DNA from: a virus
Lineage: Duplodnaviria > Caudoviricetes
Direction: 5' to 3' (one strand)
IMG/VR virus record: IMGVR_UViG_3300009514_000026
Coordinates: 1 to 61,112 of that record
Length of the DNA: 61,112 bases
Shown here: positions 119 through 48,857 of the stretch, piece by piece
Position numbering within the stretch: the stretch's first letter is position 1
How the letters are laid out: every line of letters begins with the position of its first letter
The notes under the pieces: model-generated
Told to the model about the DNA's origin: nothing
Seen by the model: the letters and a program-made list of their open reading frames with translations, nothing else
The model's database searches: none
Made by a program: the position numbers and the translations under genes

Positions 119-3100
119 ATGATAGTAAAAGGTATTGTAACGGGCGTTATTAGAAATGCAGAAACGGGCGAATTTAAGCGTTCATTTACGATTGAAAATA
201 ATGTAACCGATTATCAATTACAGCAAATGGCGAACTTTCCAACACTGGACGGTAGTTATAGATTTGGAACAAATATATTTATTTCTGGTGAAGTTGATAC
301 GATTAAATCATCTAGAGATTCTTATGTATACGATGTTTTTGAAGTAGGATTCGTGGAATCTGGTGTAACATCACCAACATATAATTATCCTACGTCTGAT
401 ACTGGATCGCCACAATTAGCAACTCCGCCTTTTATACAAATTCAACAGCGATTCAATCCTCCTACTGCTGATCGTACTATAACGATAATTGGTATAACTG
501 CTGATGCGCCAACAAGCACAAATATAGCAACATATAAACGTTCACTTGCACACGCATGGGTAACGTTAAGCCCTTATTGTATACAAACAACAACTGAAAC
601 GCTTGATGTTTTTTATCGTATACAATTTTTATATGAGTATGACATTGCTAATGGTGATATAAACCCATCAACTACTGCCATAGGTACAGAAAAATATTCT
701 GCGTATCTCGCAGCAATACGACTTATTCAAGGCTCTTATACTTATTTTTACAGAGCACATCATGTGTGGTCAGGAAGCAAATTAAATTATCGTAAAACGC
801 GATATAGTCATATAAGAGATCGTCATGATACATTTGGTAGATATGATGATTATCCAACTGCCAATCCATTTGCGCGTACTGCATATACGAGTATAATTAA
901 GGCTAAGTTACAGATGGATTATGATATTAGTTTCGAAATTGGTAAACTAGTAGGCGCTATTGCATATGGTCAAGATAATTCAGAATCAGCTAACACACTT
1001 GTCCATGATATTAGGAATATGATAGATTTGCCAGGTGGTGATTCGCCAATACAAAACGCATTTGGACACAGCACACTTGCTACAAGACCATTTTATGATT
1101 CTACACAAACACAATCAGGTACAGGAACATTTGCGCTTGATGGTTCGTCATGGACAAATCCAGATTGGCCCAAAATGTATCGTATTGAAATGATAACTGG
1201 TGGTGCTACTGGAACATCAACATATAGATTAAAAGTGCGTAATCATTTTGGATTCTATCAAAATTTCTATAAAGACCAAGAACGCATGATGATTCAAATG
1301 ACAACAGAGCATAGTACTACCAATTATGAAGGATTTGACATTGGTGCTGATGACGTTGTATGGCTAAATTATACATTTAATAATAAATGGGGATCGCTTG
1401 CAATAAATGCAAATGAAATTTGTGCCATAGATTTAACCACACAAACAGGAAAAAGAACACATGTTGATGTACAAACAAATTTTACAGCTACAAAGATTGG
1501 TGTAATTGCAATCAATCCAGATAATGGTGATTTATGGGTTCCTTGTAGAGAAACAGGTTTATACAAAGTTGTAGATCCAGAAAATGCACGCACAGTAACT
1601 AAGATAGCATTTCCAACAGGAACAGGTTCACCGACTGCCAGCCTTGATCGTTGTATAGCAGTTGCAATTACGCCAATTCCTGGCGGCTCGCCTATTACGC
1701 GCCGTATATGGGCAATATTTTCAGATATGGTCGGTGATCGTATCACTAATACAGCGGTTGGTTTATGGTATTCTGATAATGACGGTAGTACGTGGATACA
1801 AGATACAACATGGGACCCAACAGTTGCAACATATTGGTCAACGTATGTGGCTAATGGTAGAGTTAATGATATTTATTATATGATAGGCGATCCTTATCAT
1901 ATGGATGGTAGACTATTAATAGGATATAGTAGATACACTGTAGCCGCAAATGCCACATATGACCATATGTATGGTATGTGGCATGATGGTGTATCAGGGA
2001 CAACAGATGGACCACATCTTAATTATTTTTATCGTAATACACAATCTGGTGATTTCAATCGTGTTTCGCTTAATGATCCTAGAACTCTTGGACATCAATA
2101 TAGTGTTTCATCAAATCAAGGAAAATGGGGCGGAAAATATCTTTCTCAAAGTGCGAACAGCAGTCCTCAATACTTATATTATGGTTCTACAAGTGTTACG
2201 AAATATGCTTCTACCTGTCCAAATGCTTATCACCTGGGTTGGGCTGTCGATGATGTTGGCGATGATTCAATTATATACATTCGCGGCCACACGAATGGTG
2301 CTTATCTTGGTGTTTACAAAGATAATAATACTGTATATGAAGAACAGATTACAGATACACAAGAGGATTTTAGTGGTGAAGGTGGAACTATTAGAAGAAC
2401 CTTATTAAATTTAGGTGATGGTATTTTCTTTGGCCAAAAGGTTGCCAGTAGTGGTGGTTACTTTGGAATCGCAACATTATCAACACAACTTGCACCATTA
2501 GGACATGCGATTGATGATCTTAATGTCTGGACAGACTATGGTTGGAATGGTTCAAGTTGGGAAGAAGGACACGCAGGAAATAAATCTACACACACAACAG
2601 CACAAGAATTAGTTGATGGTGTCACTATTGAATTTGCAGACGCGGTAACAGATCCTGGTGGTGCAGGTAATTGGATTGCAACGGATTATTATACGTTTGG
2701 TGTAGTAGATGGTGTATGGTTAGATGGTTCAACAGAAGTTCACCATAAAACATCGTTATATTTTAAACCTGCTACAGAAGGCCAAACTGAAATAGAGGCT
2801 GCAACATTGCCTGCTATTACTAAATCGGTTGATCACACAGTAGGAAATACTGCATTTACTTATCAAAATACTTCTTCGAATTTCAATATAACAGATAATG
2901 GTAGATCTGCCTGGTATAGTGGTTCATGGGTTTTAAATGGTTTTAATGGTTATGCACAATCTAATGAATTTATTCCTGCTGCTAACATTGGAAATAATCC
3001 AAAGAATGATATTCATGCTGGAGTATATTGGTATTTCTCTAGTGAAAATGTTGTCAATATGCAGTTTATTGTAGGACTTAGTTCACAAACACGAATTGAC

Positions 3101-3754
3101 GATGTTGCGAGCTATGCTGGTATTAGAGAAGAATCACCAGAATATGCAATTCGTATTGATCCACCAACAAATGGTACTGCGGGTTATGTCGATATTAGCG
3201 CTGTTCATAGTGGTGTTGAACAAGCAAGAATTAATAATTTCTATTATAATGAAAACGGTTTATCGGGATCTACTTATTTTAGAATAATAATTAAGAAAGA
3301 TGGACATGTTAGATATACGTATTTCCAAGGTTCGCATGGTGAGATGGTTCTTTATGATACGTCATTGGGAAGTCCTGAACCAGCACCACCGATTACTTTG
3401 CCACATGAAAATTATTATGTGGATTATGCCACTTCTGGTAATAGTAGTTATGGGGGGTATGCAAATTTATATCTCTATGGTCTGACAGCGCCGGATTATT
3501 ATCTTGAATTGGGTACAGTAGGTAACTCAACAGGTTATTGGAATACGGATTTTTATGGTATTGATTATGAACAAGGGTTTGATATTAGTATTGCGGGTGT
3601 AGCAACACCTGTTAATGTTGGTAATAATGATACCACAGCAACATTAGCAACAGGCGAATATTCCATATTTCCGAATACGGGAATAATAAGATATAGTTCT
3701 GCTGACGTTGGTAAAGCGGTCTCAGTAACGTATACTGAATTAACAAATGAATAG
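119..3754 (+). CDS. Large virion structural / tail-associated protein
   Basis: 1211 aa, T/G/S/Y-rich beta-type composition, Asp-box-like SDNDGSTW motif; adjacent to a tail fibre-like gene. Confidence 0.6.
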   Translation: MIVKGIVTGVIRNAETGEFKRSFTIENNVTDYQLQQMANFPTLDGSYRFGTNIFISGEVDTIKSSRDSYVYDVFEVGFVESGVTSPTYNYPTSDTGSPQLATPPFIQIQQRFNPPTADRTITIIGITADAPTSTNIATYKRSLAHAWVTLSPYCIQTTTETLDVFYRIQFLYEYDIANGDINPSTTAIGTEKYSAYLAAIRLIQGSYTYFYRAHHVWSGSKLNYRKTRYSHIRDRHDTFGRYDDYPTANPFARTAYTSIIKAKLQMDYDISFEIGKLVGAIAYGQDNSESANTLVHDIRNMIDLPGGDSPIQNAFGHSTLATRPFYDSTQTQSGTGTFALDGSSWTNPDWPKMYRIEMITGGATGTSTYRLKVRNHFGFYQNFYKDQERMMIQMTTEHSTTNYEGFDIGADDVVWLNYTFNNKWGSLAINANEICAIDLTTQTGKRTHVDVQTNFTATKIGVIAINPDNGDLWVPCRETGLYKVVDPENARTVTKIAFPTGTGSPTASLDRCIAVAITPIPGGSPITRRIWAIFSDMVGDRITNTAVGLWYSDNDGSTWIQDTTWDPTVATYWSTYVANGRVNDIYYMIGDPYHMDGRLLIGYSRYTVAANATYDHMYGMWHDGVSGTTDGPHLNYFYRNTQSGDFNRVSLNDPRTLGHQYSVSSNQGKWGGKYLSQSANSSPQYLYYGSTSVTKYASTCPNAYHLGWAVDDVGDDSIIYIRGHTNGAYLGVYKDNNTVYEEQITDTQEDFSGEGGTIRRTLLNLGDGIFFGQKVASSGGYFGIATLSTQLAPLGHAIDDLNVWTDYGWNGSSWEEGHAGNKSTHTTAQELVDGVTIEFADAVTDPGGAGNWIATDYYTFGVVDGVWLDGSTEVHHKTSLYFKPATEGQTEIEAATLPAITKSVDHTVGNTAFTYQNTSSNFNITDNGRSAWYSGSWVLNGFNGYAQSNEFIPAANIGNNPKNDIHAGVYWYFSSENVVNMQFIVGLSSQTRIDDVASYAGIREESPEYAIRIDPPTNGTAGYVDISAVHSGVEQARINNFYYNENGLSGSTYFRIIIKKDGHVRYTYFQGSHGEMVLYDTSLGSPEPAPPITLPHENYYVDYATSGNSSYGGYANLYLYGLTAPDYYLELGTVGNSTGYWNTDFYGIDYEQGFDISIAGVATPVNVGNNDTTATLATGEYSIFPNTGIIRYSSADVGKAVSVTYTELTNE

Positions 3755-3765
3755 GGAAAATAAAA

Positions 3766-6700
3766 ATGGCACGTTTAACATTTAGACAAGGAATTATACG
3801 ACACGGAAGAAGCCCTGGCCAGTCATTCTTTTTACAACAGAATGGACAGTTTGTTGATCTCTTAATTTCGCCTGAGCAGACAATTATAGCTTTTGCTGAT
3901 GGCACAACAGATTACTTGTTTACAGAATCTGTTACCAACAATCAATTATGGGGACCATTTACTTTAACTGGACAAGATTATTGGTTGTATTGGGATATTG
4001 ACAGAATAACTGGTGTTCATACACATGGACATACTACACTTACGCCTGTCTATGGAACTACGGCACCAGCAACTCCTGTAAATGGACAAATGTGGTTTAA
4101 TACTAGTGCTATGAAAATGTACGAATATAATGGTGCATCATGGGTACAAGTTCTTCGTGTTTTTGCATGTAAGTACAGAAACAATCAATTCTTTTCGCCG
4201 GTTGATGGTGTTTCCATAGAAACAAATTTCACAGGAACACAAGTTGGATCTGCTGGTAATGTCACCAAGAATATTGGTTCATTAGTTTTTGATGCTTCAG
4301 GCAACCCAATTGTTAATCAATCTGGCCAGTTTTTCACTACAGAAGATGCATTTACAACAGGCATTCCAACCGGCGCATCATTAAAAGTTAATAATATTCT
4401 TATCCGTGCCCGAGCAACACAGAATATTGCAGCTTATCAAGTTGTTGTTTTTACTCAATATAATAAAATTAAGCGAGCCGCCCCATTTGATTTTCTTGAT
4501 AAGGTTTATGGTATAGTTGAAGAAGATATTTCAACTAATGCCAGTGGCAATGTTATCATGGAAGGTATAATATACAACCAATCATGGGACTTTTCTGATA
4601 GTATTAACTTTCCAGATATGAGTGGTAGTATCAATGACCCTATCTATATAACTTCATCCGGTACGCTTACTACAAATATTGCTTTGGCAATTCCTGGCCA
4701 AGTTCCGCTTGGCGCAATTATTGGACAACAATCTATTATATTTAATCCCGGCATATATGGCTATGGAACTGGTGGTGCCTCCGGAGATCATGGTTCGTTA
4801 ACAGGATTAGGTGACGATGATCATACACAATATCATAATGATACACGTGGCGACGCAAGATATTATACACAATCTATTGCTGATATATTATTTGCGCCAA
4901 TAGTACATGCGCACACAAAAGCAGATATTGCTGATTTTTCACATACACATATCGAAGCAGATATATCAAATTTAGATAAGTATACGCAGGCTCAAACCAA
5001 TGCATTATTAAATGCTAAAGTATCGAAATCTGGTGATACGATGACGGGGGCACTAACTTTACCAAGTGATCCTACTAGTGCATTACAGGCTGCTACGAAA
5101 CAATATGTTGATGCTATCGCAGCAGGCATTGCCGCCAAAGATTCAGTTGCTGTTGCAACAACTACCGACCTTAATGCTACGTATAGTGCCACTGGCGGCA
5201 CCGGCGGCACCGGTGAATTTACTGGTGTTGATATTACCAATCTTGATGGTGCGCTAGATGTTGCATATGATTTTATTTTAACATCGCGCGTTCTTGTTAA
5301 AAATCAAACAGATGCAAAACAAAATGGTATTTACATTATAACAGATCAAAGCAATCCATTATTGGCTACATTAGAACGTGCTCCAGATCATGACGGCGCA
5401 CCGGCCGCCGAAGTCTCGCCTGGTAACTTCACATTCATATCTGGTGGTACTGAACACGGTGGTTCAGGTTGGGTAATATTAGCAGGCACTGCAACAGGTC
5501 CAAGTGATATTATTATTCTTAATACAGATGATATGAATTGGGGACAGATATCTTCTGCTACTGCATATACAGCTGGAAACAATATTAATATTACTGGTGC
5601 TAATGTTATCAATGTTAAAGATGTTATTGATGGTGGTACGATAGATGCATTAACATGGAATGGGCATTCAGTAACTGTGTCTGGTTCTCCACTGCCGGCC
5701 GATAATCAAGTATTGTTGTTTAATTCTTCAACTACTGATTGGGAAAATGATTACTTACCACTTATTCGTAATTCAGATAACTCAAGCAATGTAACTATTA
5801 ATACCACGACTGGTGCCATTGGGGTTTTAACGCCAAGTACATTAAGTTTAAATAGTGCAGGTAATACTACTATTACTTCATCGCTTGCATTTAGTACGAA
5901 CAGTACAGGCAATACAACATTTACTGCTGGGACATCAAGTATACTTCTTAATAATACATCGGATATAACATTAACATCGGATAAAGTTATTATTAATCCA
6001 ACAGGAAATAACGGCATTGTTGTATTGAATAGTAATGGATTTACTTCTACTCTTACAACACCATTGCTTTCGGGAAATACTCAATTTGTATTGCCAGGAA
6101 ATACAGGTAGTTCAGGACAAGTTCTTTCTACTGATGGTACTGGTGTCACTTCTTGGATTACATCATCTGGAGGTGGTAGTGCATACTGTATTAAAGATGG
6201 TGATGGTGATACTTTTGTTTCTGTTGGTTTTGGTGCTTCACCAACATGTACTGATAGCGGTAGTAACCATATTCGTATTCAAGCAGGCGATCCACCAGCG
6301 TATGACACAGAAGGTGGTAACGTAGTAATACGATCTGGATTAGGAAATAATTTAGCATCTGGTACAATTACTTTAGAAGCTGCGCCAGGTGAAGGTGGTG
6401 CCTATCGAGGTGGTGATATTAATATACGTTCTGGTTCTGGCGATGGAAAAGACGGTGGGAGTATCCGAATAGAAAGTGGCGACGTTGTTGGTTATGGTAA
6501 TAGTGCAGGTCATGTATATGTCTATGCAGGCGACGGCGGTGGCGGCACGATGAACACAGCAGGCAATGTTATTATTCAAGGTGGTAGCCTGTACGCGCCC
6601 GACTATGGTTACAATGGTGGTAATGTTCATCTTCGAACCGCATATGGAAACATGATTACAGGTGATATTTATTTAGCACCTGGTGCGGCCGGCGGCGAAA

Positions 6701-7376: not shown

Positions 7377-7467
7377 TCTTTCCATTGATGGGCAATGAAT
7401 AAAATAACCCATTATATAACCATTAGACGCGAAAGCATAATAATAAGAAATGAAGGAGATGTGAATA

Positions 7468-8328
7468 ATGGCACTTTCATTAGAGCAGCTTACCGCTGCA
7501 TTCAAAAAACAAGACACAACGGAATCTCGTCCAAACAACTACTACCGCTTTTGGGATATGAAAATCGGCGAACAAGCAATTGTACGCTTCCTACCTGATG
7601 CAAACAAAGAAAACCCACTTGGTTTTATGGTTGAAAAACTGATGCACACATTGGAAATCAATGGTGAAACTAAGTCTATTCCTTGCTTGAAAATGTATGG
7701 TGAAGAATGTCCTATTTGTAAGGTATCTTCAGCTTACTACAAAGATGAAGGTAAAGATAGTCCTAACGGTAAGAAATACTGGAGAAAGAAACAGCATATT
7801 GTTCAGGCTCTTATCGTAGAAGATCCACTTGCACCTGATTCTGAAACTGGTGAAAACAGTGAAGGTAAAGTTAAGTTCCTTAATATGGGTTACCAACTTT
7901 ACAGTGTAATCAAGGAAGCTTTCGAAAGTGGTGAACTTGATGACATTCCATACCTTTACGAAGGTGGTTGTGATTTTATTATCAAGAAAACTGACCTTGG
8001 TGGTCGTCCTAAGTATGACGTTGGTTCTAAATTTGCCCGTCGTTCTTCTGACCTTACACCAGATGAAGTAGAAGTAGCAGAAGACGAAATGGTAGACTTG
8101 TCTACGCTTCTTCCTGCAAATCCAGGTTTGGAAAAAGTAGAAACTATGCTTGAAGCAGCACTGACTGGTGCTAGTTATGAAGATGATTCAACTGGCGAAC
8201 CTGCGCCTGCGGCAACTGCATCAACATCAGTAGCTGAATCTAAATCAAAAGAATCCACCGAATTTGATGAAGAGTCTGACGACATTCTTGCGATTATCCG
8301 TAACCGTAAAAATAAATCTGCTGAATAA
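7468..8328 (+). CDS. Single-stranded DNA-binding protein (T4 gp32-like)
   Basis: AIVRFLP motif, zinc ligands (H...C...CPIC), acidic C-terminal tail, GGAG SD. Confidence 0.88.
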   Translation: MALSLEQLTAAFKKQDTTESRPNNYYRFWDMKIGEQAIVRFLPDANKENPLGFMVEKLMHTLEINGETKSIPCLKMYGEECPICKVSSAYYKDEGKDSPNGKKYWRKKQHIVQALIVEDPLAPDSETGENSEGKVKFLNMGYQLYSVIKEAFESGELDDIPYLYEGGCDFIIKKTDLGGRPKYDVGSKFARRSSDLTPDEVEVAEDEMVDLSTLLPANPGLEKVETMLEAALTGASYEDDSTGEPAPAATASTSVAESKSKESTEFDEESDDILAIIRNRKNKSAE

Positions 8329-22900: not shown

Positions 22901-23181
22901 TGACAAAGCAAACATTTAAAGAATTCTTGATTGAGTTGATGGTTAGCGACGATCCCATGCAAGCAATGAAAGACGTAAAACAGGCTTCCCGTAATCCCGA
23001 TAGATATAAAAAACAACAAATGGCAAAAACTGTTGATACTCAACGAGAAATTCAACAGTCCGAAGATGATCCACTTAAGTCGGAGAAATTGCGCCTTGCA
23101 AAAATGCGACAACAAGTAGCGGCACAAGAAAACCGATTGGCACAAAAAGAAAAACGCGAAGTAAAACGTGTTGGTGTATAG
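22900..23181 (+). CDS. Hypothetical late protein
   Basis: MTKQTFKEFLIE N-terminus. Confidence 0.6.
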   Translation: MTKQTFKEFLIELMVSDDPMQAMKDVKQASRNPDRYKKQQMAKTVDTQREIQQSEDDPLKSEKLRLAKMRQQVAAQENRLAQKEKREVKRVGV

Positions 23182-36450: not shown

Positions 36451-36481
36451 AAAAAGGGTTACATTATTGTAACCCTTTTTT
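36451..36481 (-). terminator. Intrinsic terminator
   Basis: AAAAAGGGTTACA-TTAT-TGTAACCCTTTTT. Confidence 0.75.
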
Positions 36482-41281: not shown

Positions 41282-41399
41282 TGGTACCGGCGGCGGGATT
41301 CGAACCCGCATGACGTTACCGTCGCTGGATTTTTTTAAGCATCCTTCTAAAAAGATGCTTCGTAAAAGTCCAGTGTGTATACCATTCCACCACACCGGC
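41282..41399 (-). tRNA. tRNA-Leu (probably TAA) with a 32-nt anticodon-loop intron
   Basis: Leu body with variable arm; hairpin insert about 41334-41365. Confidence 0.75.
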
Positions 41400-41677: not shown

Positions 41678-41917
41678 TTATTGAGATATTATATAGTCCT
41701 TTGACATAATTGTCAATAGTTGTTGTTTAGTTCGTTCGCGCTTAATCTTAATTGCCCAACAATTATACTTTTTATTAAAGTAAATTGAATTAACACTCTT
41801 GTTAATTTGATTACATATTGTAACCAATTTTTCTTTAGTATCACAAATTACATAATAATTTCCCCCTAAGCCTATTTTAAGTCTGGGTATTTCAAATGAC
41901 ATTAGCATTAAAGACAT
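41678..41917 (-). CDS. Hypothetical protein
   Basis: 79-aa ORF. Confidence 0.4.
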   Translation of the reverse strand: MSLMLMSFEIPRLKIGLGGNYYVICDTKEKLVTICNQINKSVNSIYFNKKYNCWAIKIKRERTKQQLLTIMSKDYIISQ

Positions 41918-45833: not shown

Positions 45834-46298
45834 TTTGTCAAATCGTCCACAAAATTTGCATCAAGATACCACAAAAAATACTGTGATTCTTGTTCTCCGA
45901 ACATTAGACATTATAGAACACGTGCTAAATTTGAATTTAATGTGTATGAATATCCGAACGAATTTGATCTGACGCTTATTGAAAAACACGGTTGGTATTC
46001 ACCGAATGGATATAAGCGTCGCAATAAATCACCAAATTTAACTGGTATTTCACGTGATCATCTGTATACCGTTCATGATGGTTTTCACAATAATGTAGAT
46101 CCCATGCTTTTGTCACACCCTACTAATTGTAAACTTATTCCACACAATGGCAAAAATGGTAACAATAGTAAAAACAATAAAAGTTCTATATCATTGGATG
46201 AACTTAAAAAACGAATATCTTTATGGGATAAAAATATTTTTAATTGGAAGCCCTGCCTGGAATTGAACCAGAATCTCAACATTCAAAGTGTTGCGTGA
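45834..46298 (+). pseudogene. HNH-type homing endonuclease, N-terminally disrupted
   Basis: SRDH...HPTNC...HN..N motif; frame open back to a TAA near 45831, with the nearby ATG out of frame. Confidence 0.55.
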
Positions 46299-46404: not shown

Positions 46405-46456
46405 TTTATTTTAGTCTGTATTGGTTCGTTTGGATTTCAAATCCATAAATACAGAC

Positions 46457-47017
46457 ATGTCTAAAAAAGAAAATTTAATTAATATAAACCATAGCAAATT
46501 CAAAGAACTTACTGGATCATGTACCACAAAAGCAGAACTTCATGCTAAGTTAGAAGTTCCCGTAAATGGAACATATACGAGAATCGTCAATAAACTTATG
46601 GTTGATACAAACGCCAAGTTAAGACCCAAAAAATTAAAATATAATTTAATTATAAAAACTTGTCCAGTTTGTGGTGATGAATTTGTGCATTACGAAAATC
46701 ATCCAAGACCTAAAACTACTTGTTCATATGCATGTTCTAATAAACATTTTCGTTCTGGTACAAATAACGGTAACTATGATCCAACCAAATATAGAAATGT
46801 TTGTTTTGAACATCATGAAAAAGAATGCATCATATGTAAAGAAAATAGAATCGTTGATGTTCACCACCATGATGGTAACCATGATAACAATGAACCATCA
46901 AATTTAATACCGCTGTGTCCTACGCATCACACTTTATATCATAGTAGATTTCGTGATGACGTATTACCATATATCGAACAATATCGTAAGACCTTTATAA
47001 AATCTTACGACAATTAA
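46457..47017 (+). mobile_element. HNH homing endonuclease, antisense to the tRNA array
   Basis: CPVC...CSYAC, CIIC, VHHHDGNHDNN...NLIPLCPTHH; TAAATA upstream. Confidence 0.85.
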
Positions 47018-47097: not shown

Positions 47098-47173
47098 TGT
47101 GGGCAGTTGGATTTCATACCAACAATTTCTTTCGTAGAGAAATGCTGTCCTATGAAGGTTAGACTATACCCAC
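47098..47173 (-). pseudogene. Degenerate tRNA-like sequence (ACG loop)
   Basis: GTGGGTA/TGCCCAC acceptor, loop CT-ACG-AA, aberrant D and T loops. Confidence 0.45.
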
Positions 47174-47177
47174 TAAG

Positions 47178-47278
47178 TCGGGATGGTAGGATTTGAACCT
47201 ACAACTTCACCGCCCCTTTAAATGCCCTCATTGAAGACACTTAAAACGGCGCACTCTACCAGATTGAGCTACACCCCG
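47178..47278 (-). tRNA. tRNA-Pro(TGG) with a 27-nt anticodon-loop intron
   Basis: CGGGGTG Pro body; removing 47217-47243 restores TT-TGG-GG. Confidence 0.75.
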
Positions 47279-47319
47279 AAATTGTTTACTAAATTTTATA
47301 CCTTTCCTTCCTATCTTTC

Positions 47320-47480
47320 CAGCGGGACCGACTTTACGGTTCATTCCGCGTGGCTGGCACCATCCCGCGCTACCGGTAGGTGAGTTCCGTTGTAGGTGTT
47401 CGGACAGGAATTTCAACCTGTCAACATTCTACAACCCGTGTTTCTTCGAAATAATTAGTATCTAAGCGTACCGCTAATTA
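47320..47480 (-). ncRNA. Unassigned structured RNA at the head of the array
   Basis: Hairpins including GUUGUAG..GACAGG-UUGAAAUU-CCUGUC..CUACAAC with a T-loop-like cap. Confidence 0.5.
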
Positions 47481-47523
47481 CTTCTGCTTTTCAATTCTAA
47501 GTCGCTTTTCGCGGCTTTCCAAA

Positions 47524-47552
47524 ATTATAACTCGTTTCTGTAAAGGTGTCAA
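47524..47552 (-). promoter_or_regulatory. Sigma70 consensus promoter
   Basis: TTGACA-17 nt-TATAAT. Confidence 0.8.
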
Positions 47553-47637
47553 GCGTTTTCTTTCACTTTTTTCAACTTTTTTCGGTGATTGGAACACCAT
47601 TACTAATCTTTTAAACATTTTTCCAATCTCCAGAACT

Positions 47638-47671
47638 AAAAAAGGCCACCTTTTTGGGGTAGCCTTTTGTG
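47638..47671 (-). terminator. Intrinsic terminator of a putative attenuator
   Basis: AAAAGGCTACC-CCAAAAA-GGTGGCCTTTTTT; 5' arm complementary to 47720-47730. Confidence 0.75.
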
Positions 47672-47695
47672 TTTCTTTCTTTTGGATTCTACTTG

Positions 47696-47839
47696 TTATA
47701 TTGTTTCGGTAGAGTCCCCCACAAAAGGCTGTGAACATTCATAACTACGTGGATCGAGTTCAAAAAAGCCTAGACGCAATGATCCCATCCCACATAATTC
47801 GGGCCGGCGTATATGCCATTGTTGTCTAAAGTCTTGCAT
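47696..47839 (-). CDS. Putative 47-aa attenuator leader peptide (not in the ORF track)
   Basis: MQDFRQQWHIRRPELCGMGSLRLGFFELDPRSYECSQPFVGDSTETI; AAGG SD; lies between tandem promoters and the terminator. Confidence 0.65.
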   Translation of the reverse strand: MQDFRQQWHIRRPELCGMGSLRLGFFELDPRSYECSQPFVGDSTETI

Positions 47840-47883
47840 TTCTTTAACCTTTTGTGTTGCCCTTCGGCGTTAAATTTAAGTGT

Positions 47884-47975
47884 ATCTTAATACTATATAT
47901 GGGTGATGTCAATAAATTTTTTCGCTTATATTTGATTGTGGTCTAAATTATATATCATTCAGAACCAGATGTCAA
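47884..47975 (-). promoter_or_regulatory. Tandem sigma70 promoters
   Basis: TTGACA-17-TATAAT (47975-47947) and TTGACA-17-TAAGAT (47912-47884). Confidence 0.8.
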
Positions 47976-47978
47976 CCA

Positions 47979-48857
47979 TTATTCTTCAAATTTTACAGTA
48001 ATTTTTCTGTACTTGTCTTTTACTTCATGTTGGTGGACGTATTTTCCGTATCGTGTTTGAAATCCTGTAAACCAATTTTTGGTGTCTGAATTCTGTTTTC
48101 TGTCACCAGATAGTATCATAGTTTCTGGTGCATACACAATAGGAGTATCTTCACTATCAGGATCTTTGCTACCGATAAGCACCGTATCGCCAGTAGACCA
48201 CAGACTACAGTAAACTGCAACAGCATCATCATCTAACCATCCAACAAGTTGAATATCGCCCATGGTTCCATGTCCTTCTGAATCAAGTTTGAGATGGCTG
48301 TTTTTATCAGCTTGAAGTACAGCAAGTATTAATGGTGAAACTACAATCCAATTTGCTTTAACTTCTTTAATTGCGGTCTTTATCGCGCCAGTTATAGTAC
48401 AGCCGCTCCCCACTGGTGCTATAAGATTTATTTCAGGGGCGTTAGTGGAAATAAGATGTAAAAATTCATTTACAAGTTCCATTTCTATTTCTGCGGCACA
48501 TGCTTGATTTATTTCACATTCAAAATCTATTCCATTGTGAATTTTTATATCGGCTTTTGGCATATCAGGATAGCCACATTGTAGTGGTCTTGTGACAACA
48601 TCAATATCGTATGTAAGACCGCCAGAAACAACAGTGGGATTTTTTTTGTCTGTAACTGGTTGTATACCAATAATTTTACTCAGCGCAAATCTGCTTAATA
48701 TACGACGTACTATAACAGCAGCGTTATCCATTACATTCTTATTTTCTTTATTTTTGTTTGTGAAATGGTATTCGAGTTCGTTTTTTAGAATTTGTTCTTT
48801 GATATTGTTGTGATCGTTGATGTCTTCCATCAAGATATCGAGGGTTTCTTTGTACAT
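47979..48857 (-). CDS. Major capsid protein paralog (gp23/gp24-like)
   Basis: IIGIQP, AEIEMELVNE, ANWIVVSP, VYAP, GFQTRYG. Confidence 0.7.
   Translation of the reverse strand: MYKETLDILMEDINDHNNIKEQILKNELEYHFTNKNKENKNVMDNAAVIVRRILSRFALSKIIGIQPVTDKKNPTVVSGGLTYDIDVVTRPLQCGYPDMPKADIKIHNGIDFECEINQACAAEIEMELVNEFLHLISTNAPEINLIAPVGSGCTITGAIKTAIKEVKANWIVVSPLILAVLQADKNSHLKLDSEGHGTMGDIQLVGWLDDDAVAVYCSLWSTGDTVLIGSKDPDSEDTPIVYAPETMILSGDRKQNSDTKNWFTGFQTRYGKYVHQHEVKDKYRKITVKFEE

What the first reader, a model, noticed from the sequence alone, without database searches (positions are those of the whole stretch)
47638..47975. Candidate pan-codon attenuator controlling the phage tRNA array
Seen: two sigma70 promoters, an SD, a 47-codon ORF absent from the ORF track (47839-47696) and an intrinsic terminator, all directly upstream of the tRNA array. 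Leader codons 37-40 contain AGCCUUUUGUG (47730-47720), an 11-nt perfect complement of the terminator's 5' arm CACAAAAGGCU (47671-47661), so the two folds are mutually exclusive. The 36 codons before that arm use M,Q,D,F,R,W,H,I,P,E,L,C,G,S,Y. These are exactly the 15 amino acids for which I find tRNAs in the array. A,K,N,T,V are absent from those codons and from the array, although they are very common in this genome's proteins. Synonymous codons are deliberately varied (Arg AGA/CGC/CGG/CGT, Leu TTA/TTG/CTA/CTC, Gly GGG/GGA/GGC, Ile ATA). Established: this is trp/his attenuator logic. Inference: stalling at any depleted tRNA, for example after cleavage by a host anticodon nuclease, frees the antiterminator and switches on replacement tRNAs. 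I know of no described phage example. Caveat: a consensus promoter at 47524-47552 lies downstream of the terminator, so the attenuator may only boost expression.
Basis: partly seen in the sequence, partly recalled or inferred. Interest (0 to 1): 0.92.

Follow-up and report, generated by a model that had tools for sequence, protein, structure and literature searches.

The report
Phage tRNA-array leader-peptide attenuator candidate
A small conserved gene with a built-in RNA switch sits in front of a giant phage's tRNA genes and looks like a sensor that reads how well those same tRNAs decode and adjusts their transcription, which has not been described for a phage.

Summary
These are two promoters, the 47-codon ORF, the intrinsic terminator, the 11-nt arm complementary to the terminator's 5' arm (6 of 20000 shuffles match it) and the downstream consensus promoter. 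I add a fourth segment: the Shine-Dalgarno region pairs with the same ORF arm. This gives a full 1:2 / 2:3 / 3:4 attenuator layout.

The layout is kept in two related jumbo-phage contigs (G001, G002), with one compensatory change in helix 2:3. The ORF has 9 further homologues.

The claim of an exact match to the tRNA set fails. The window has no tRNA-Tyr. Nine of the 10 leaders, all but the window's own, carry some A/K/N/T/V. Codon variety is not beyond chance.

The depletion is still real and frame-specific (0 of 3003 to 6189 shuffles). In G001 the A/K/N/T/V/Ile(GAU) tRNAs form a second array. It is headed by its own promoter, 33-codon ORF and terminator, and that ORF is the most A/K/N/T/V/I-rich of 1646 small ORFs in the genome.

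Best reading, at about 0.45: a ribosome-mediated attenuator that senses decoding by the tRNAs it precedes. There are no expression data and only three DNA homologues. The downstream promoter means it can only add to array transcription.

The parts
47947..47975 (-). Promoter P1, sigma-70-like, 12 of 12 consensus positions
   Evidence: A counterpart is present in L001 and L011.
47884..47912 (-). Promoter P2, sigma-70-like, 10 of 12; the likely start of the roughly 245-nt leader transcript near 47877
   Evidence: A counterpart is present in L001 and L011. The start site is inferred, not measured.
47859..47868 (-). Small 3-bp hairpin with a 4-nt loop in the 5' UTR, kept in all three DNA homologues
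   Evidence: The off-frame upstream extensions of P0001 and P0005 imply the same letters in those genomes.
47846..47856 (-). Region 1: 5' UTR segment that includes the Shine-Dalgarno-like purines and pairs with the ORF arm (helix 1:2)
   Evidence: Found in the minimum-free-energy folds of the window and L001 and in the RNAalifold consensus. It forms 11, 10 and 10 pairs in the window, L001 and L011.
47696..47839 (-). Leader ORF, 47 codons plus stop
   Evidence: Homologues come and are aligned. A related contig shows in-frame 3-nt indels.
47720..47730 (-). Region 2: arm inside codons 37-40, complementary to region 1 and to region 3
   Evidence: In P0005 the arm is kept in a shifted reading frame.
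47684..47717 (-). Hairpin spanning the stop codon, lying between regions 2 and 3; conserved
47661..47671 (-). Region 3: 5' flank and 5' arm of the terminator, complementary to region 2 (antiterminator helix 2:3)
   Evidence: A U-A to C-G compensatory change is seen in L011.
47634..47668 (-). Intrinsic terminator (regions 3 and 4) with its T run
   Evidence: The upper stem differs but still pairs in L001 and L011.
47524..47552 (-). Promoter P3, 12 of 12, downstream of the terminator and preceded by an A-rich stretch
   Evidence: It is kept in L001 (11 of 12) and L011 (12 of 12).
47322..47435 (-). Conserved structured RNA of unknown kind between P3 and the first tRNA
   Evidence: 31 predicted pairs, 6 with compensatory changes among 3 sequences. 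There is no Rfam match at E up to 1.
47178..47278 (-). First tRNA gene of the array: a tRNA-Pro(UGG) homologue carrying a 27-nt insert between anticodon positions 34 and 35
   Evidence: Rfam score of 53.6 bits.

Best explanation
This is a ribosome-mediated (leader-peptide) transcription attenuator at the head of one of the phage's tRNA arrays. Host RNA polymerase starts at P1 or P2 and makes a leader of about 245 nt.

Four segments can pair in two exclusive ways:
- Region 1 (the Shine-Dalgarno region) pairs with region 2 (inside codons 37-40), and region 3 pairs with region 4. This gives a terminator and a closed ribosome-binding site.
- Alternatively, region 2 pairs with region 3. This gives an antiterminator.

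The inferred mechanism has three cases:
- No ribosome on the leader: helix 1:2 forms first, the terminator forms and transcription stops.
- A ribosome has run to the end of the ORF: it sits between regions 2 and 3, or on region 2. This blocks 2:3 and again allows termination.
- A ribosome is held up anywhere in about the first 32 codons: it sits between regions 1 and 2, so region 2 is free to pair with region 3 as soon as region 3 is made. Polymerase then reads through into P3, a structured RNA and the tRNA genes.

The leader is built almost only from the 15 amino-acid types whose tRNAs lie in the downstream array of this phage clade. Slow decoding by exactly those tRNAs would therefore raise their own transcription, a negative feedback on tRNA supply.

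Shown: the segments, their complementarity, their conservation and the composition bias. Inferred: translation of the ORF, the coupling of ribosome position to folding, and any effect on tRNA levels.
For: Architecture:
- All parts are at the stated places.
- An 11-nt complement arose in 6 of 20000 shuffles, and the motif is unique to this locus in 61 kb.
- The fold z-score is -3.87, with 0 of 200 shuffles folding as well.
- The nascent RNA up to region 3 folds into helix 2:3 (-21.5 kcal/mol in the window, -24.1 in L001). The full 3' part has the terminator conformer at -28.3 against the antiterminator at -25.7 (window), and -31.7 against -30.0 (L001). The two states are close in energy, and the antiterminator is the one that can form first.

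Conservation:
- The same order is found in L001/G001 and L011/G002: P1, P2, UTR hairpin, ORF, arms, terminator, P3, structured RNA, tRNA-Pro. The neighbouring capsid-like protein is only 59% and 49% identical.
- Helix 2:3 has 11, 12 and 11 pairs with one U-A to C-G double change. Helix 1:2 has 11, 10 and 10 pairs.
- The consensus fold keeps 1:2, the stop-codon hairpin and the terminator.
- The tail of P0005 equals the off-frame reading of the window's region 2. The arm is therefore kept as RNA there.

Translation:
- Ten homologous ORFs of 45-49 codons share the start and end region.
- Indels are in frame in the one relative whose DNA could be laid on the window (a 3-nt deletion and a 3-nt insertion in the same contig), and the peptide alignment needs only whole-residue gaps.
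- The A/K/N/T/V depletion exists only in the ORF's frame. 0 of 3003, 0 of 6189 and 0 of 4894 stop-free dinucleotide shuffles reach it, and the other two frames carry 9-14 such residues.

Link to tRNAs:
- 31 of 35, 31 of 36 and 27 of 35 leader codons are readable by the downstream array, against a background of 0.55-0.58.
- The leader reads 20 of 22, 20 of 22 and 19 of 22 anticodon species of the array.
- All 15 types are present in 9 of 10 homologues. A/K/N/T/V make up 16 of 366 residues, against 0.32 in the window's long ORFs.
- In G001 the array behind the leader holds 14 amino-acid types and none of V, A, T, K or N. These, plus Ile(GAU), form a second array of 13 genes.
- The second array is headed by a promoter, a 33-codon ORF with 24 of 32 residues from A, K, N, T, V and I (18 of the first 19), a terminator and an ORF-internal arm that pairs with the terminator's 5' arm.
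- Genome-wide in G001, that ORF ranks 1 of 1646 small ORFs for this composition. The homologue of the window's leader ranks 1 of 1509 for lack of A/K/N/T/V.
- Ile codons are ATA in the leaders before the array that holds or probably holds an ATA reader (2 of 2 in the window, 3 of 3 in L001). They are ATC or ATT, 4 of 4, in the second leader, before the array that holds Ile(GAU).
Against: - A consensus promoter (P3) lies between the terminator and the tRNAs in 3 of 3 genomes. Read-through can only add to array transcription.
- The array spans 22 kb with protein genes. It has at least one more 12-of-12 promoter (41716-41688) and a strong terminator (36480-36451) on the same strand. Any effect would therefore reach only its first part.
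- The match is not exact. There is no tRNA-Tyr and no Ser(UGA) in the window although the leader has TAT and two TCA codons.
- 9 of 10 homologous leaders hold 1-4 A/K/N/T/V residues.
- G002's leader has two Ala codons, yet its downstream array has no tRNA-Ala among 30 default ARAGORN calls. G002's array also holds a Thr(GGU) gene.
- The peptide core is conserved (7 invariant and 7 nearly invariant columns). A pure codon counter does not need this.
- Codon variety is not beyond chance (P = 0.30-0.42).
- Region 1 lies in the UTR, not in the ORF as in the classical cases.
- The second leader is known from one genome only and could not be tested for conservation.
- There are only three DNA homologues, so covariation rests on one or two events.
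The homologues share ancestry and are not independent.
- There is no expression, termination or ribosome-occupancy data of any kind.
Confidence: 0.45

Rival explanations
1. It is an attenuator, but not a tRNA-set sensor. The conserved nascent peptide, or overall translation capacity, sets the ribosome's progress, as with arrest peptides that respond to a ligand or a factor. The composition bias would be a by-product of that peptide's requirements.
For: - The peptide core is conserved: 7 invariant and 7 nearly invariant columns, including an acidic-Pro-Arg stretch and an aromatic residue.
- The same four-segment architecture and conservation apply as for the best explanation.
- Homologues tolerate some A/K/N/T/V residues.
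- Codon choice is not special.
Against: - It does not explain why the missing residue types are just those whose tRNAs lie in the other array.
- It does not explain why a second cassette with the opposite composition heads that array.
- Within each chemical class the leader uses the member served by the downstream array: R not K, Q not N, S not T, L/F/M not V, G not A. A peptide-level constraint would not predict this.
- His and Ile are kept in 10 of 10 homologues but at shifting positions.
- Synonymous sites in the core are far more conserved than the neighbouring gene's divergence allows. This points to RNA or codon identity rather than to the peptide alone.
Confidence: 0.25
2. It is simply a small, strongly expressed early gene, or a dual-function small RNA, with its own promoters and terminator. 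The 5'-3' pairing (1:2) limits translation or stabilises the RNA. The 2:3 complementarity follows from regions 1 and 3 being near-copies. Nothing downstream is regulated.
For: - There are two strong promoters and an efficient-looking terminator, and an independent promoter for the tRNAs.
- The ground-state fold closes the transcript end to end, with a z-score of -3.87.
- The peptide is conserved.
- Released attenuator RNAs can act in trans in bacteria (PMC6614838; I saw only the search listing and the start of the abstract).
Against: - The Shine-Dalgarno region is sequestered in the finished transcript. This suits a leader that is read only during transcription, not a protein made in quantity.
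- The compensatory change falls in 2:3.
- The cassette lies directly before the array in 3 of 3 genomes.
- The frame-specific composition and the mirror-image cassette before the second array have no reason under this reading.
- Pfam gives no family for the peptide.
Confidence: 0.25
3. It is a chance arrangement: an unannotated short ORF near an ordinary terminator, with a coincidental complement and composition.
For: - The composition pattern in the window was found post hoc.
- AT-rich genomes hold many short ORFs: 1646 of 25-60 codons in G001.
Against: - 6 of 20000 shuffles give the complement.
- The whole layout is conserved in two distant relatives.
- There are nine further ORF homologues.
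- 0 of 3003 to 6189 shuffles reach the depletion.
Confidence: 0.03

Closest known systems
Multivalent leader-peptide attenuators of enterobacterial amino-acid operons (thr, ilvGMEDA, ilvBN; also trp, his, leu, pheA). Named from my own knowledge; general descriptions were seen only as listing abstracts of PMC1183508 and PMC3082878.
   Same: - A short translated leader.
- An intrinsic terminator, with an antiterminator that shares the terminator's 5' arm.
- A further upstream partner for the antiterminator arm.
- Near-equal energies of the two states.
- In the thr and ilv cases, sensing of more than one amino acid. The second cassette in G001 looks much like such a leader, with repeated Thr, Ile, Lys, Asn, Ala and Val codons.
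   Different: - It is in a phage.
- The downstream genes are tRNA genes (plus an RNA ligase in the second cassette), not biosynthetic enzymes.
- The window's leader has no run of one codon. It has one to six codons for each of 15 amino acids.
- Region 1 is the ribosome-binding site itself.
- The peptide sequence is conserved.
- A separate promoter follows the terminator.
- No Rfam leader family matches.
T-box riboswitches (tRNA-sensing antitermination before aminoacyl-tRNA synthetase and amino-acid genes; from my own knowledge)
   Same: They give a terminator or antiterminator choice that reports on the state of tRNAs.
   Different: T-boxes bind one uncharged tRNA directly and need no translation. 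Here there is a translated ORF and no T-box match in Rfam at E up to 1 over 47100-48000.
Attenuator-derived small RNAs such as rnTrpL of Sinorhizobium (PMC6614838; listing and start of abstract only)
   Same: The terminated leader is a stable, structured small RNA that also encodes a peptide. It could act in trans.
   Different: No target is known or predicted here, and I did not test this.
Phage tRNA sets and tRNA repair as counter-measures to host anticodon nucleases (T4 RNA ligase and polynucleotide kinase against PrrC; T5-type tRNA sets). Recalled from my own knowledge; the listing shows only that jumbo-phage papers discuss tRNAs and anticodon nucleases.
   Same: The phages carry large tRNA complements (32 genes in the window, 44 Rfam matches in G001). 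An RNA ligase family gene lies directly before a tRNA-Lys(UUU) gene in G001.
   Different: No regulatory sensor upstream of phage tRNA genes is described in what I could search.

Membership tests
Ribosome-mediated (leader-peptide) transcription attenuators | Short ORF with a ribosome-binding site in the leader transcript | tested here: met
   A 47-codon ATG ORF with purine-rich stretch 8 nt upstream. It is kept in 10 homologues. Translation itself is not shown.
Ribosome-mediated (leader-peptide) transcription attenuators | Intrinsic terminator between the leader ORF and the downstream genes | tested here: met
   An 11-pair stem plus T run at 47668-47640. The counterparts pair in L001 and L011.
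Ribosome-mediated (leader-peptide) transcription attenuators | Antiterminator that is mutually exclusive with the terminator | tested here: met
   11, 12 and 11 pairs in three genomes, with one compensatory change. 6 of 20000 shuffles match it.
Ribosome-mediated (leader-peptide) transcription attenuators | Upstream segment (region 1) that captures the antiterminator arm when no ribosome stalls, normally inside the ORF at the control codons | tested here: inconclusive
   A partner exists with 11, 10 and 10 pairs. It lies in the 5' UTR over the ribosome-binding site, not in the ORF.
Ribosome-mediated (leader-peptide) transcription attenuators | Control codons enriched for the amino acid(s) related to the regulated genes | tested here: inconclusive
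   There are no tandem runs. However, 31 of 35 codons are readable by the downstream tRNAs, and A/K/N/T/V are absent in a frame-specific way. Exceptions occur in 9 of 10 homologues. Codon variety is not significant.
Ribosome-mediated (leader-peptide) transcription attenuators | Downstream genes depend on read-through (no promoter of their own) | tested here: not met
   A 12-of-12 promoter lies at 47552-47524 and is kept in L001 and L011. The feature is met for the second cassette in G001, where no strong same-strand promoter lies between the terminator and the ligase and tRNA genes.
Ribosome-mediated (leader-peptide) transcription attenuators | Read-through changes with translation of the leader | not testable with these tools
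   No RNA run holds the locus.
Rfam leader families (Trp, His, Leu, Thr leaders) and T-box | Match to the covariance model | tested here: not met
   Only tRNA matches are found at gathering score in the window. Nothing relevant is found at E up to 1 in 47100-48000.
Ribosome arrest peptides | Conserved peptide that stalls its own ribosome | not testable with these tools
   There is no Pfam family. Stalling cannot be computed.

The most novel reading that the evidence does not exclude
This phage clade splits its near-complete tRNA complement into two regulons. Each is gated by its own multi-amino-acid leader-peptide attenuator, written only in the codons that the tRNAs behind it read. The leader in the window covers 15 amino-acid types. 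A second leader, seen in G001, covers A, K, N, T, V and I(AUY) and also gates an RNA ligase placed before tRNA-Lys. Each gate would be a direct sensor of decoding failure for its own tRNA set, for example after attack by a host anticodon nuclease. It would answer with more replacement tRNA and repair enzyme.
Probability: 0.3. Interest if true: 0.93.

Novelty: new variant of a known kind. Interest (0 to 1): 0.8.

Why it matters
- Why large phages carry dozens of tRNA genes, and how they are controlled, is an open question. No regulatory sensor for phage tRNA genes turned up in the literature I could search.
- A leader whose codon content mirrors the tRNA genes behind it would be the first feedback device of this kind.
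- It would extend classical attenuation from one to three amino acids up to fifteen.
- It would tie tRNA supply and RNA repair to a direct read-out of decoding. This is the quantity that host tRNA-cleaving defences attack.
- The hypothesis can be tested with a cell-free coupled system and needs no host.
- The conserved four-segment switch is also a compact natural part for translation-sensing gene control.

Tried and rejected
- DNA searches for relatives gave only G001 and G002. The searches were: blastn of 47100-48100 against phage records (no match); tblastn of both leader peptides against phage records (no match); four pattern scans; and four protein-guided scans. The 8 extra hits were random, since no ORF profile match was found.
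- No leader-like cassette was seen before the upstream tRNA cluster of G002. Its contig starts inside that array, so this is not a test.
- Small ORFs seen upstream of RNA-ligase homologues in 20 other jumbo-phage loci turned out to be off-frame readings of a longer conserved gene. They were dropped.
- The 41.7 kb promoter region of the window is not a copy of the structured RNA behind P3.
- The terminator at 36480-36451 follows an ordinary 77-codon ORF, not a leader.
- Relaxed ARAGORN settings gave mostly false positives. I used them only where Rfam agreed.
- Sequencing runs: no RNA holder was listed. The four DNA runs that I laid gave only short contigs of relatives. They show one P0001-like variant with in-frame indels, say nothing on expression, and tell nothing reliable about habitat.
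- The structured region before G001's third tRNA cluster is a GOLLD RNA, not a leader.
- I read no paper beyond search listings and abstract starts, and opened no supplements.
Full report
**What the window is.**
The held record is only the 61112-base window, with 37% G+C. The ORF directly upstream of the finding (47979-48857, - strand) is a short relative of the Gp23 major capsid family: Pfam PF07068, E = 9.4e-15. It gives distant tblastn matches, all below 60% identity, to 85 jumbo-phage records of about 350 kb. So this is a fragment of a jumbo phage.

ARAGORN finds 30 tRNA genes, all on the - strand between 25189 and 47093. Rfam adds two more at 47178-47278 and 41285-41399, each with an insert in the anticodon loop.

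The region is a mosaic. It holds tRNA genes, protein genes such as a DNA methylase, at least one further 12-of-12 promoter (41716-41688) and a strong terminator (36480-36451) on the same strand.

**The observation.**
- two promoter-like sites;
- the 47-codon ORF;
- the purine-rich ribosome-binding stretch;
- the terminator;
- the downstream 12-of-12 promoter.

The 11-nt arm in codons 37-40 is the exact complement of the terminator's 5' flank and arm. A complement of 11 nt or more arose in 6 of 20000 dinucleotide shuffles of the upstream 202 nt. The motif occurs in the whole window only at this locus.

A near-copy of the terminator's 5' arm lies in the 5' UTR over the ribosome-binding site (47856-47846). 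It pairs with the same ORF arm in the minimum-free-energy fold (z = -3.87, 0 of 200 shuffles as stable). The leader therefore has the full four-segment logic of a classical attenuator: 1:2 plus 3:4, or 2:3.

Energies support a kinetic switch:
- The nascent RNA up to region 3 folds into 2:3 at -21.5 kcal/mol.
- Once region 4 exists, the terminator state (-28.3) is only slightly better than the antiterminator state (-25.7).

**The tRNA-set claim in the window.**
The array holds 14 amino-acid types, not 15. No tRNA-Tyr is found by ARAGORN, by Rfam, or by BLAST with the relatives' Tyr genes.
- By strict wobble, 31 of leader codons 2-36 (35 codons) are readable by the array. CCC, TAT and two TCA are not.
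- No Ala, Lys, Asn, Thr or Val tRNA is called by default.
- The gene at 41285-41399 is ambiguous.
- The claim that synonymous codons are deliberately varied fails. With the peptide held fixed and codons redrawn from genome usage, coverage of anticodon species as high as observed (20 of 22) occurs with P = 0.30.

**Relatives.**
Two IMG/VR contigs carry the same locus:
- G001 (363531 bases, rated complete; loci L001 and others);
- G002 (100960 bases, a fragment; L011 and others).

The capsid-like neighbour is only 59% and 49% identical in protein. The leader region aligns at 83% mean column identity in DNA.

Both relatives have the same order of parts: P1, P2, UTR hairpin, ORF, arm, stop-codon hairpin, terminator, A-rich spacer, P3, a conserved structured RNA, then tRNA-Pro.

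Helix counts across the window, L001 and L011:
- Helix 2:3 has 11, 12 and 11 pairs. In L011 one position changed on both sides (U-A to C-G), and on the ORF side this also changes Val to Ala.
- Helix 1:2 has 11, 10 and 10 pairs.

RNAalifold's consensus keeps 1:2, the stop-codon hairpin and the terminator, whose upper stem differs between genomes but still pairs.

Protein searches found nine further ORF homologues of 45-49 codons (P0001; P0002, P0003, P0005, P0006, P0007, P0008 and P0010; the L001 ORF; P0003 equals the L011 ORF). Two long eukaryote-like repeat proteins were dropped as spurious.

A Logan contig of run X3 is a P0001-like variant with a 3-nt deletion and a 3-nt insertion, both in frame. 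P0005 ends with six residues identical to the off-frame reading of the window's region 2. There the arm is conserved as nucleotides while the frame has moved. The upstream extensions of P0001 and P0005 likewise match the off-frame reading of the window's UTR hairpin.

**Is the composition real?**
In the window's long ORFs, A, K, N, T and V make up 0.32 of residues.
- The depletion in the leader is specific to its reading frame. 0 of 3003 (window), 0 of 6189 (L001) and 0 of 4894 (L011) stop-free dinucleotide shuffles have as few such residues. The other two frames of the same nucleotides carry 9-14.
- Over the ten homologues, A/K/N/T/V are 16 of 366 residues up to the arm. Asn never occurs. All four Lys-containing leaders have Lys at position 2.
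- All 15 other types are present in 9 of 10 leaders (one lacks Trp).
- His and Ile are present in 10 of 10, but at shifting positions.
- The rule is not strict, though. 9 of 10 homologues have one to four exceptions.
- The homologues share ancestry, so these are not ten independent trials.

**The independent test.**
In the complete relative G001 the tRNA genes fall into three groups:
- an array directly behind the leader: 27 default ARAGORN calls, 14 amino-acid types, none of V, A, T, K or N;
- a second array 32-48 kb away with 13 genes, only for Val, Ala, Thr, Lys, Asn and Ile(GAU);
- a small third cluster.

G002 shows the same split as far as its contig reaches, with one Thr(GGU) gene inside the first array.

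I then looked upstream of G001's second array for a counterpart, and found one. It has an 11-of-12 promoter, a ribosome-binding site and a 33-codon ORF (G001 72723-72824, - strand). A G+C-rich terminator with a seven-T run follows, then an RNA ligase family gene (PF09414, E = 1.7e-8) ending 8 nt before tRNA-Lys(UUU).
- 24 of the ORF's 32 residues after Met, and 18 of the first 19, are A, K, N, T, V or I. Its four Ile codons are ATC or ATT.
- An arm in codons 24-26 pairs with the terminator's 5' arm in the nascent RNA (-15.7 kcal/mol). The terminator state is -23.5 against -19.0 for the forced antiterminator. A hairpin again spans the stop codon.
- Across all six frames of G001, this ORF ranks 1 of 1646 ATG ORFs of 25-60 codons for A/K/N/T/V/I content in residues 2-20 (18; the next has 16).
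- The homologue of the window's leader ranks 1 of 1509 ORFs of at least 37 codons for the fewest A/K/N/T/V in residues 2-37 (1; the next have 2).

The residue windows were chosen after seeing the ORFs, so these ranks overstate the significance somewhat. The second cassette is known from one genome only.

**Mechanism.**
Shown: four segments with two exclusive pairings, conserved; an ORF kept open with in-frame indels; a frame-specific composition.

Inferred:
- Ribosomes load while the leader is being made, because the ribosome-binding site is closed by helix 1:2 once region 2 exists.
- A ribosome delayed within about the first 32 codons stands between regions 1 and 2. It prevents 1:2 and leaves region 2 free to pair with region 3, which gives read-through.
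- A ribosome that reaches the end covers region 2, or stands between regions 2 and 3 (the stop codon is 22 nt after region 2 and 24 nt before region 3). It prevents 2:3 and gives termination.
- With no ribosome, 1:2 and 3:4 form and transcription terminates.

Because the leader contains nearly only codons read by the tRNAs of the downstream array, the natural signal would be slow decoding by those tRNAs. The weak points are listed under evidence against. Chief among them are the conserved promoter P3, the imperfect match in every genome, the conserved peptide core and the total lack of expression data.

**Comparison with the known.**
In operation it resembles the multivalent leader-peptide attenuators of the thr and ilv operons (my own knowledge; general accounts seen only as listing abstracts). 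As a family member it meets four structural criteria, is inconclusive on two and fails one (dependence of the downstream genes on read-through). No Rfam leader or T-box model matches.

Four literature searches gave no report of an attenuator or leader peptide before phage tRNA genes. These cover only the held open-access library, and I read only titles and abstract starts.

**Verdict.**
It is sharpened in two ways: a complete four-segment switch, and a mirror-image cassette before the second array in a relative. It is weakened in three ways: the match is not exact, the codon choice is not deliberate, and the array has its own promoter.

Noticed in passing
window 47178-47278 (-) and 41285-41399 (-); also G001 22999-23109 and G002 3383-3494: These are tRNA genes with inserts of 27 to about 36 nt in the anticodon loop. 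The first is a tRNA-Pro(UGG) homologue. Compared with the uninterrupted L001 gene, its 27-nt insert lies between anticodon positions 34 and 35. The second has a long variable arm, and its identity is ambiguous: Leu(UAA) if the insert sits at the same place, Lys(UUU) by relaxed ARAGORN. The inserts are too short for group I introns and their nature is unknown.
   Followed up: partly
window 47322-47435 (-); L001 about 7400-7530; L011 about 4400-4520: A conserved structured RNA lies between promoter P3 and the first tRNA. It has 31 predicted pairs, 6 with compensatory changes among three sequences, and includes a hairpin with a T-loop-like loop. There is no Rfam match at E up to 1.
   Followed up: partly
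G001 72723-72824 (-) = L009 1224-1325; ligase gene at L009 529-1143: A second leader-like cassette (promoter, 33-codon A/K/N/T/V/I-rich ORF, terminator, internal arm) lies before an RNA ligase family gene and a tRNA array for Lys, Ala, Ile(GAU), Thr, Asn and Val in the complete relative.
   Followed up: yes
G001 (L004-L007) and G002 (L013-L015): The tRNA complement is split by amino acid into two arrays about 30 kb apart, and the split is conserved between the two relatives. G002 has one exception, a Thr(GGU) gene in the first array. I found no rule based on codon box, synthetase class or modification that explains the split. That comparison was my own reasoning and came from no call.
   Followed up: partly
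G001 249448-253023 (L007) and G002 (L014 1795-1868): There are tRNA genes with anticodon CUA (amber readers, labelled Pyl by ARAGORN): two in G001 and one in G002. In G001 one of them lies inside a GOLLD RNA (Rfam RF02032, 199 bits). I did not test whether these phages read TAG as sense. The window shows neither feature.
   Followed up: no
window 46421-47017 (+) and 45942-46298 (+): Two ORFs lie on the opposite strand inside the first part of the array. The first has a weak HNH endonuclease match below Pfam's cut-off (19.7 against 21 bits). The second lies where the relatives have tRNA-Tyr, next to tRNA-Gln(UUG). This may explain why the window lacks tRNA-Tyr.
   Followed up: partly
window 41688-41716 (-) and 36451-36480 (-): There is a further 12-of-12 promoter and a strong 13-pair terminator inside the tRNA region, so the array is not one transcription unit. 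The terminator follows a 77-codon Ala/Thr/Val/Gly-rich ORF.
   Followed up: partly
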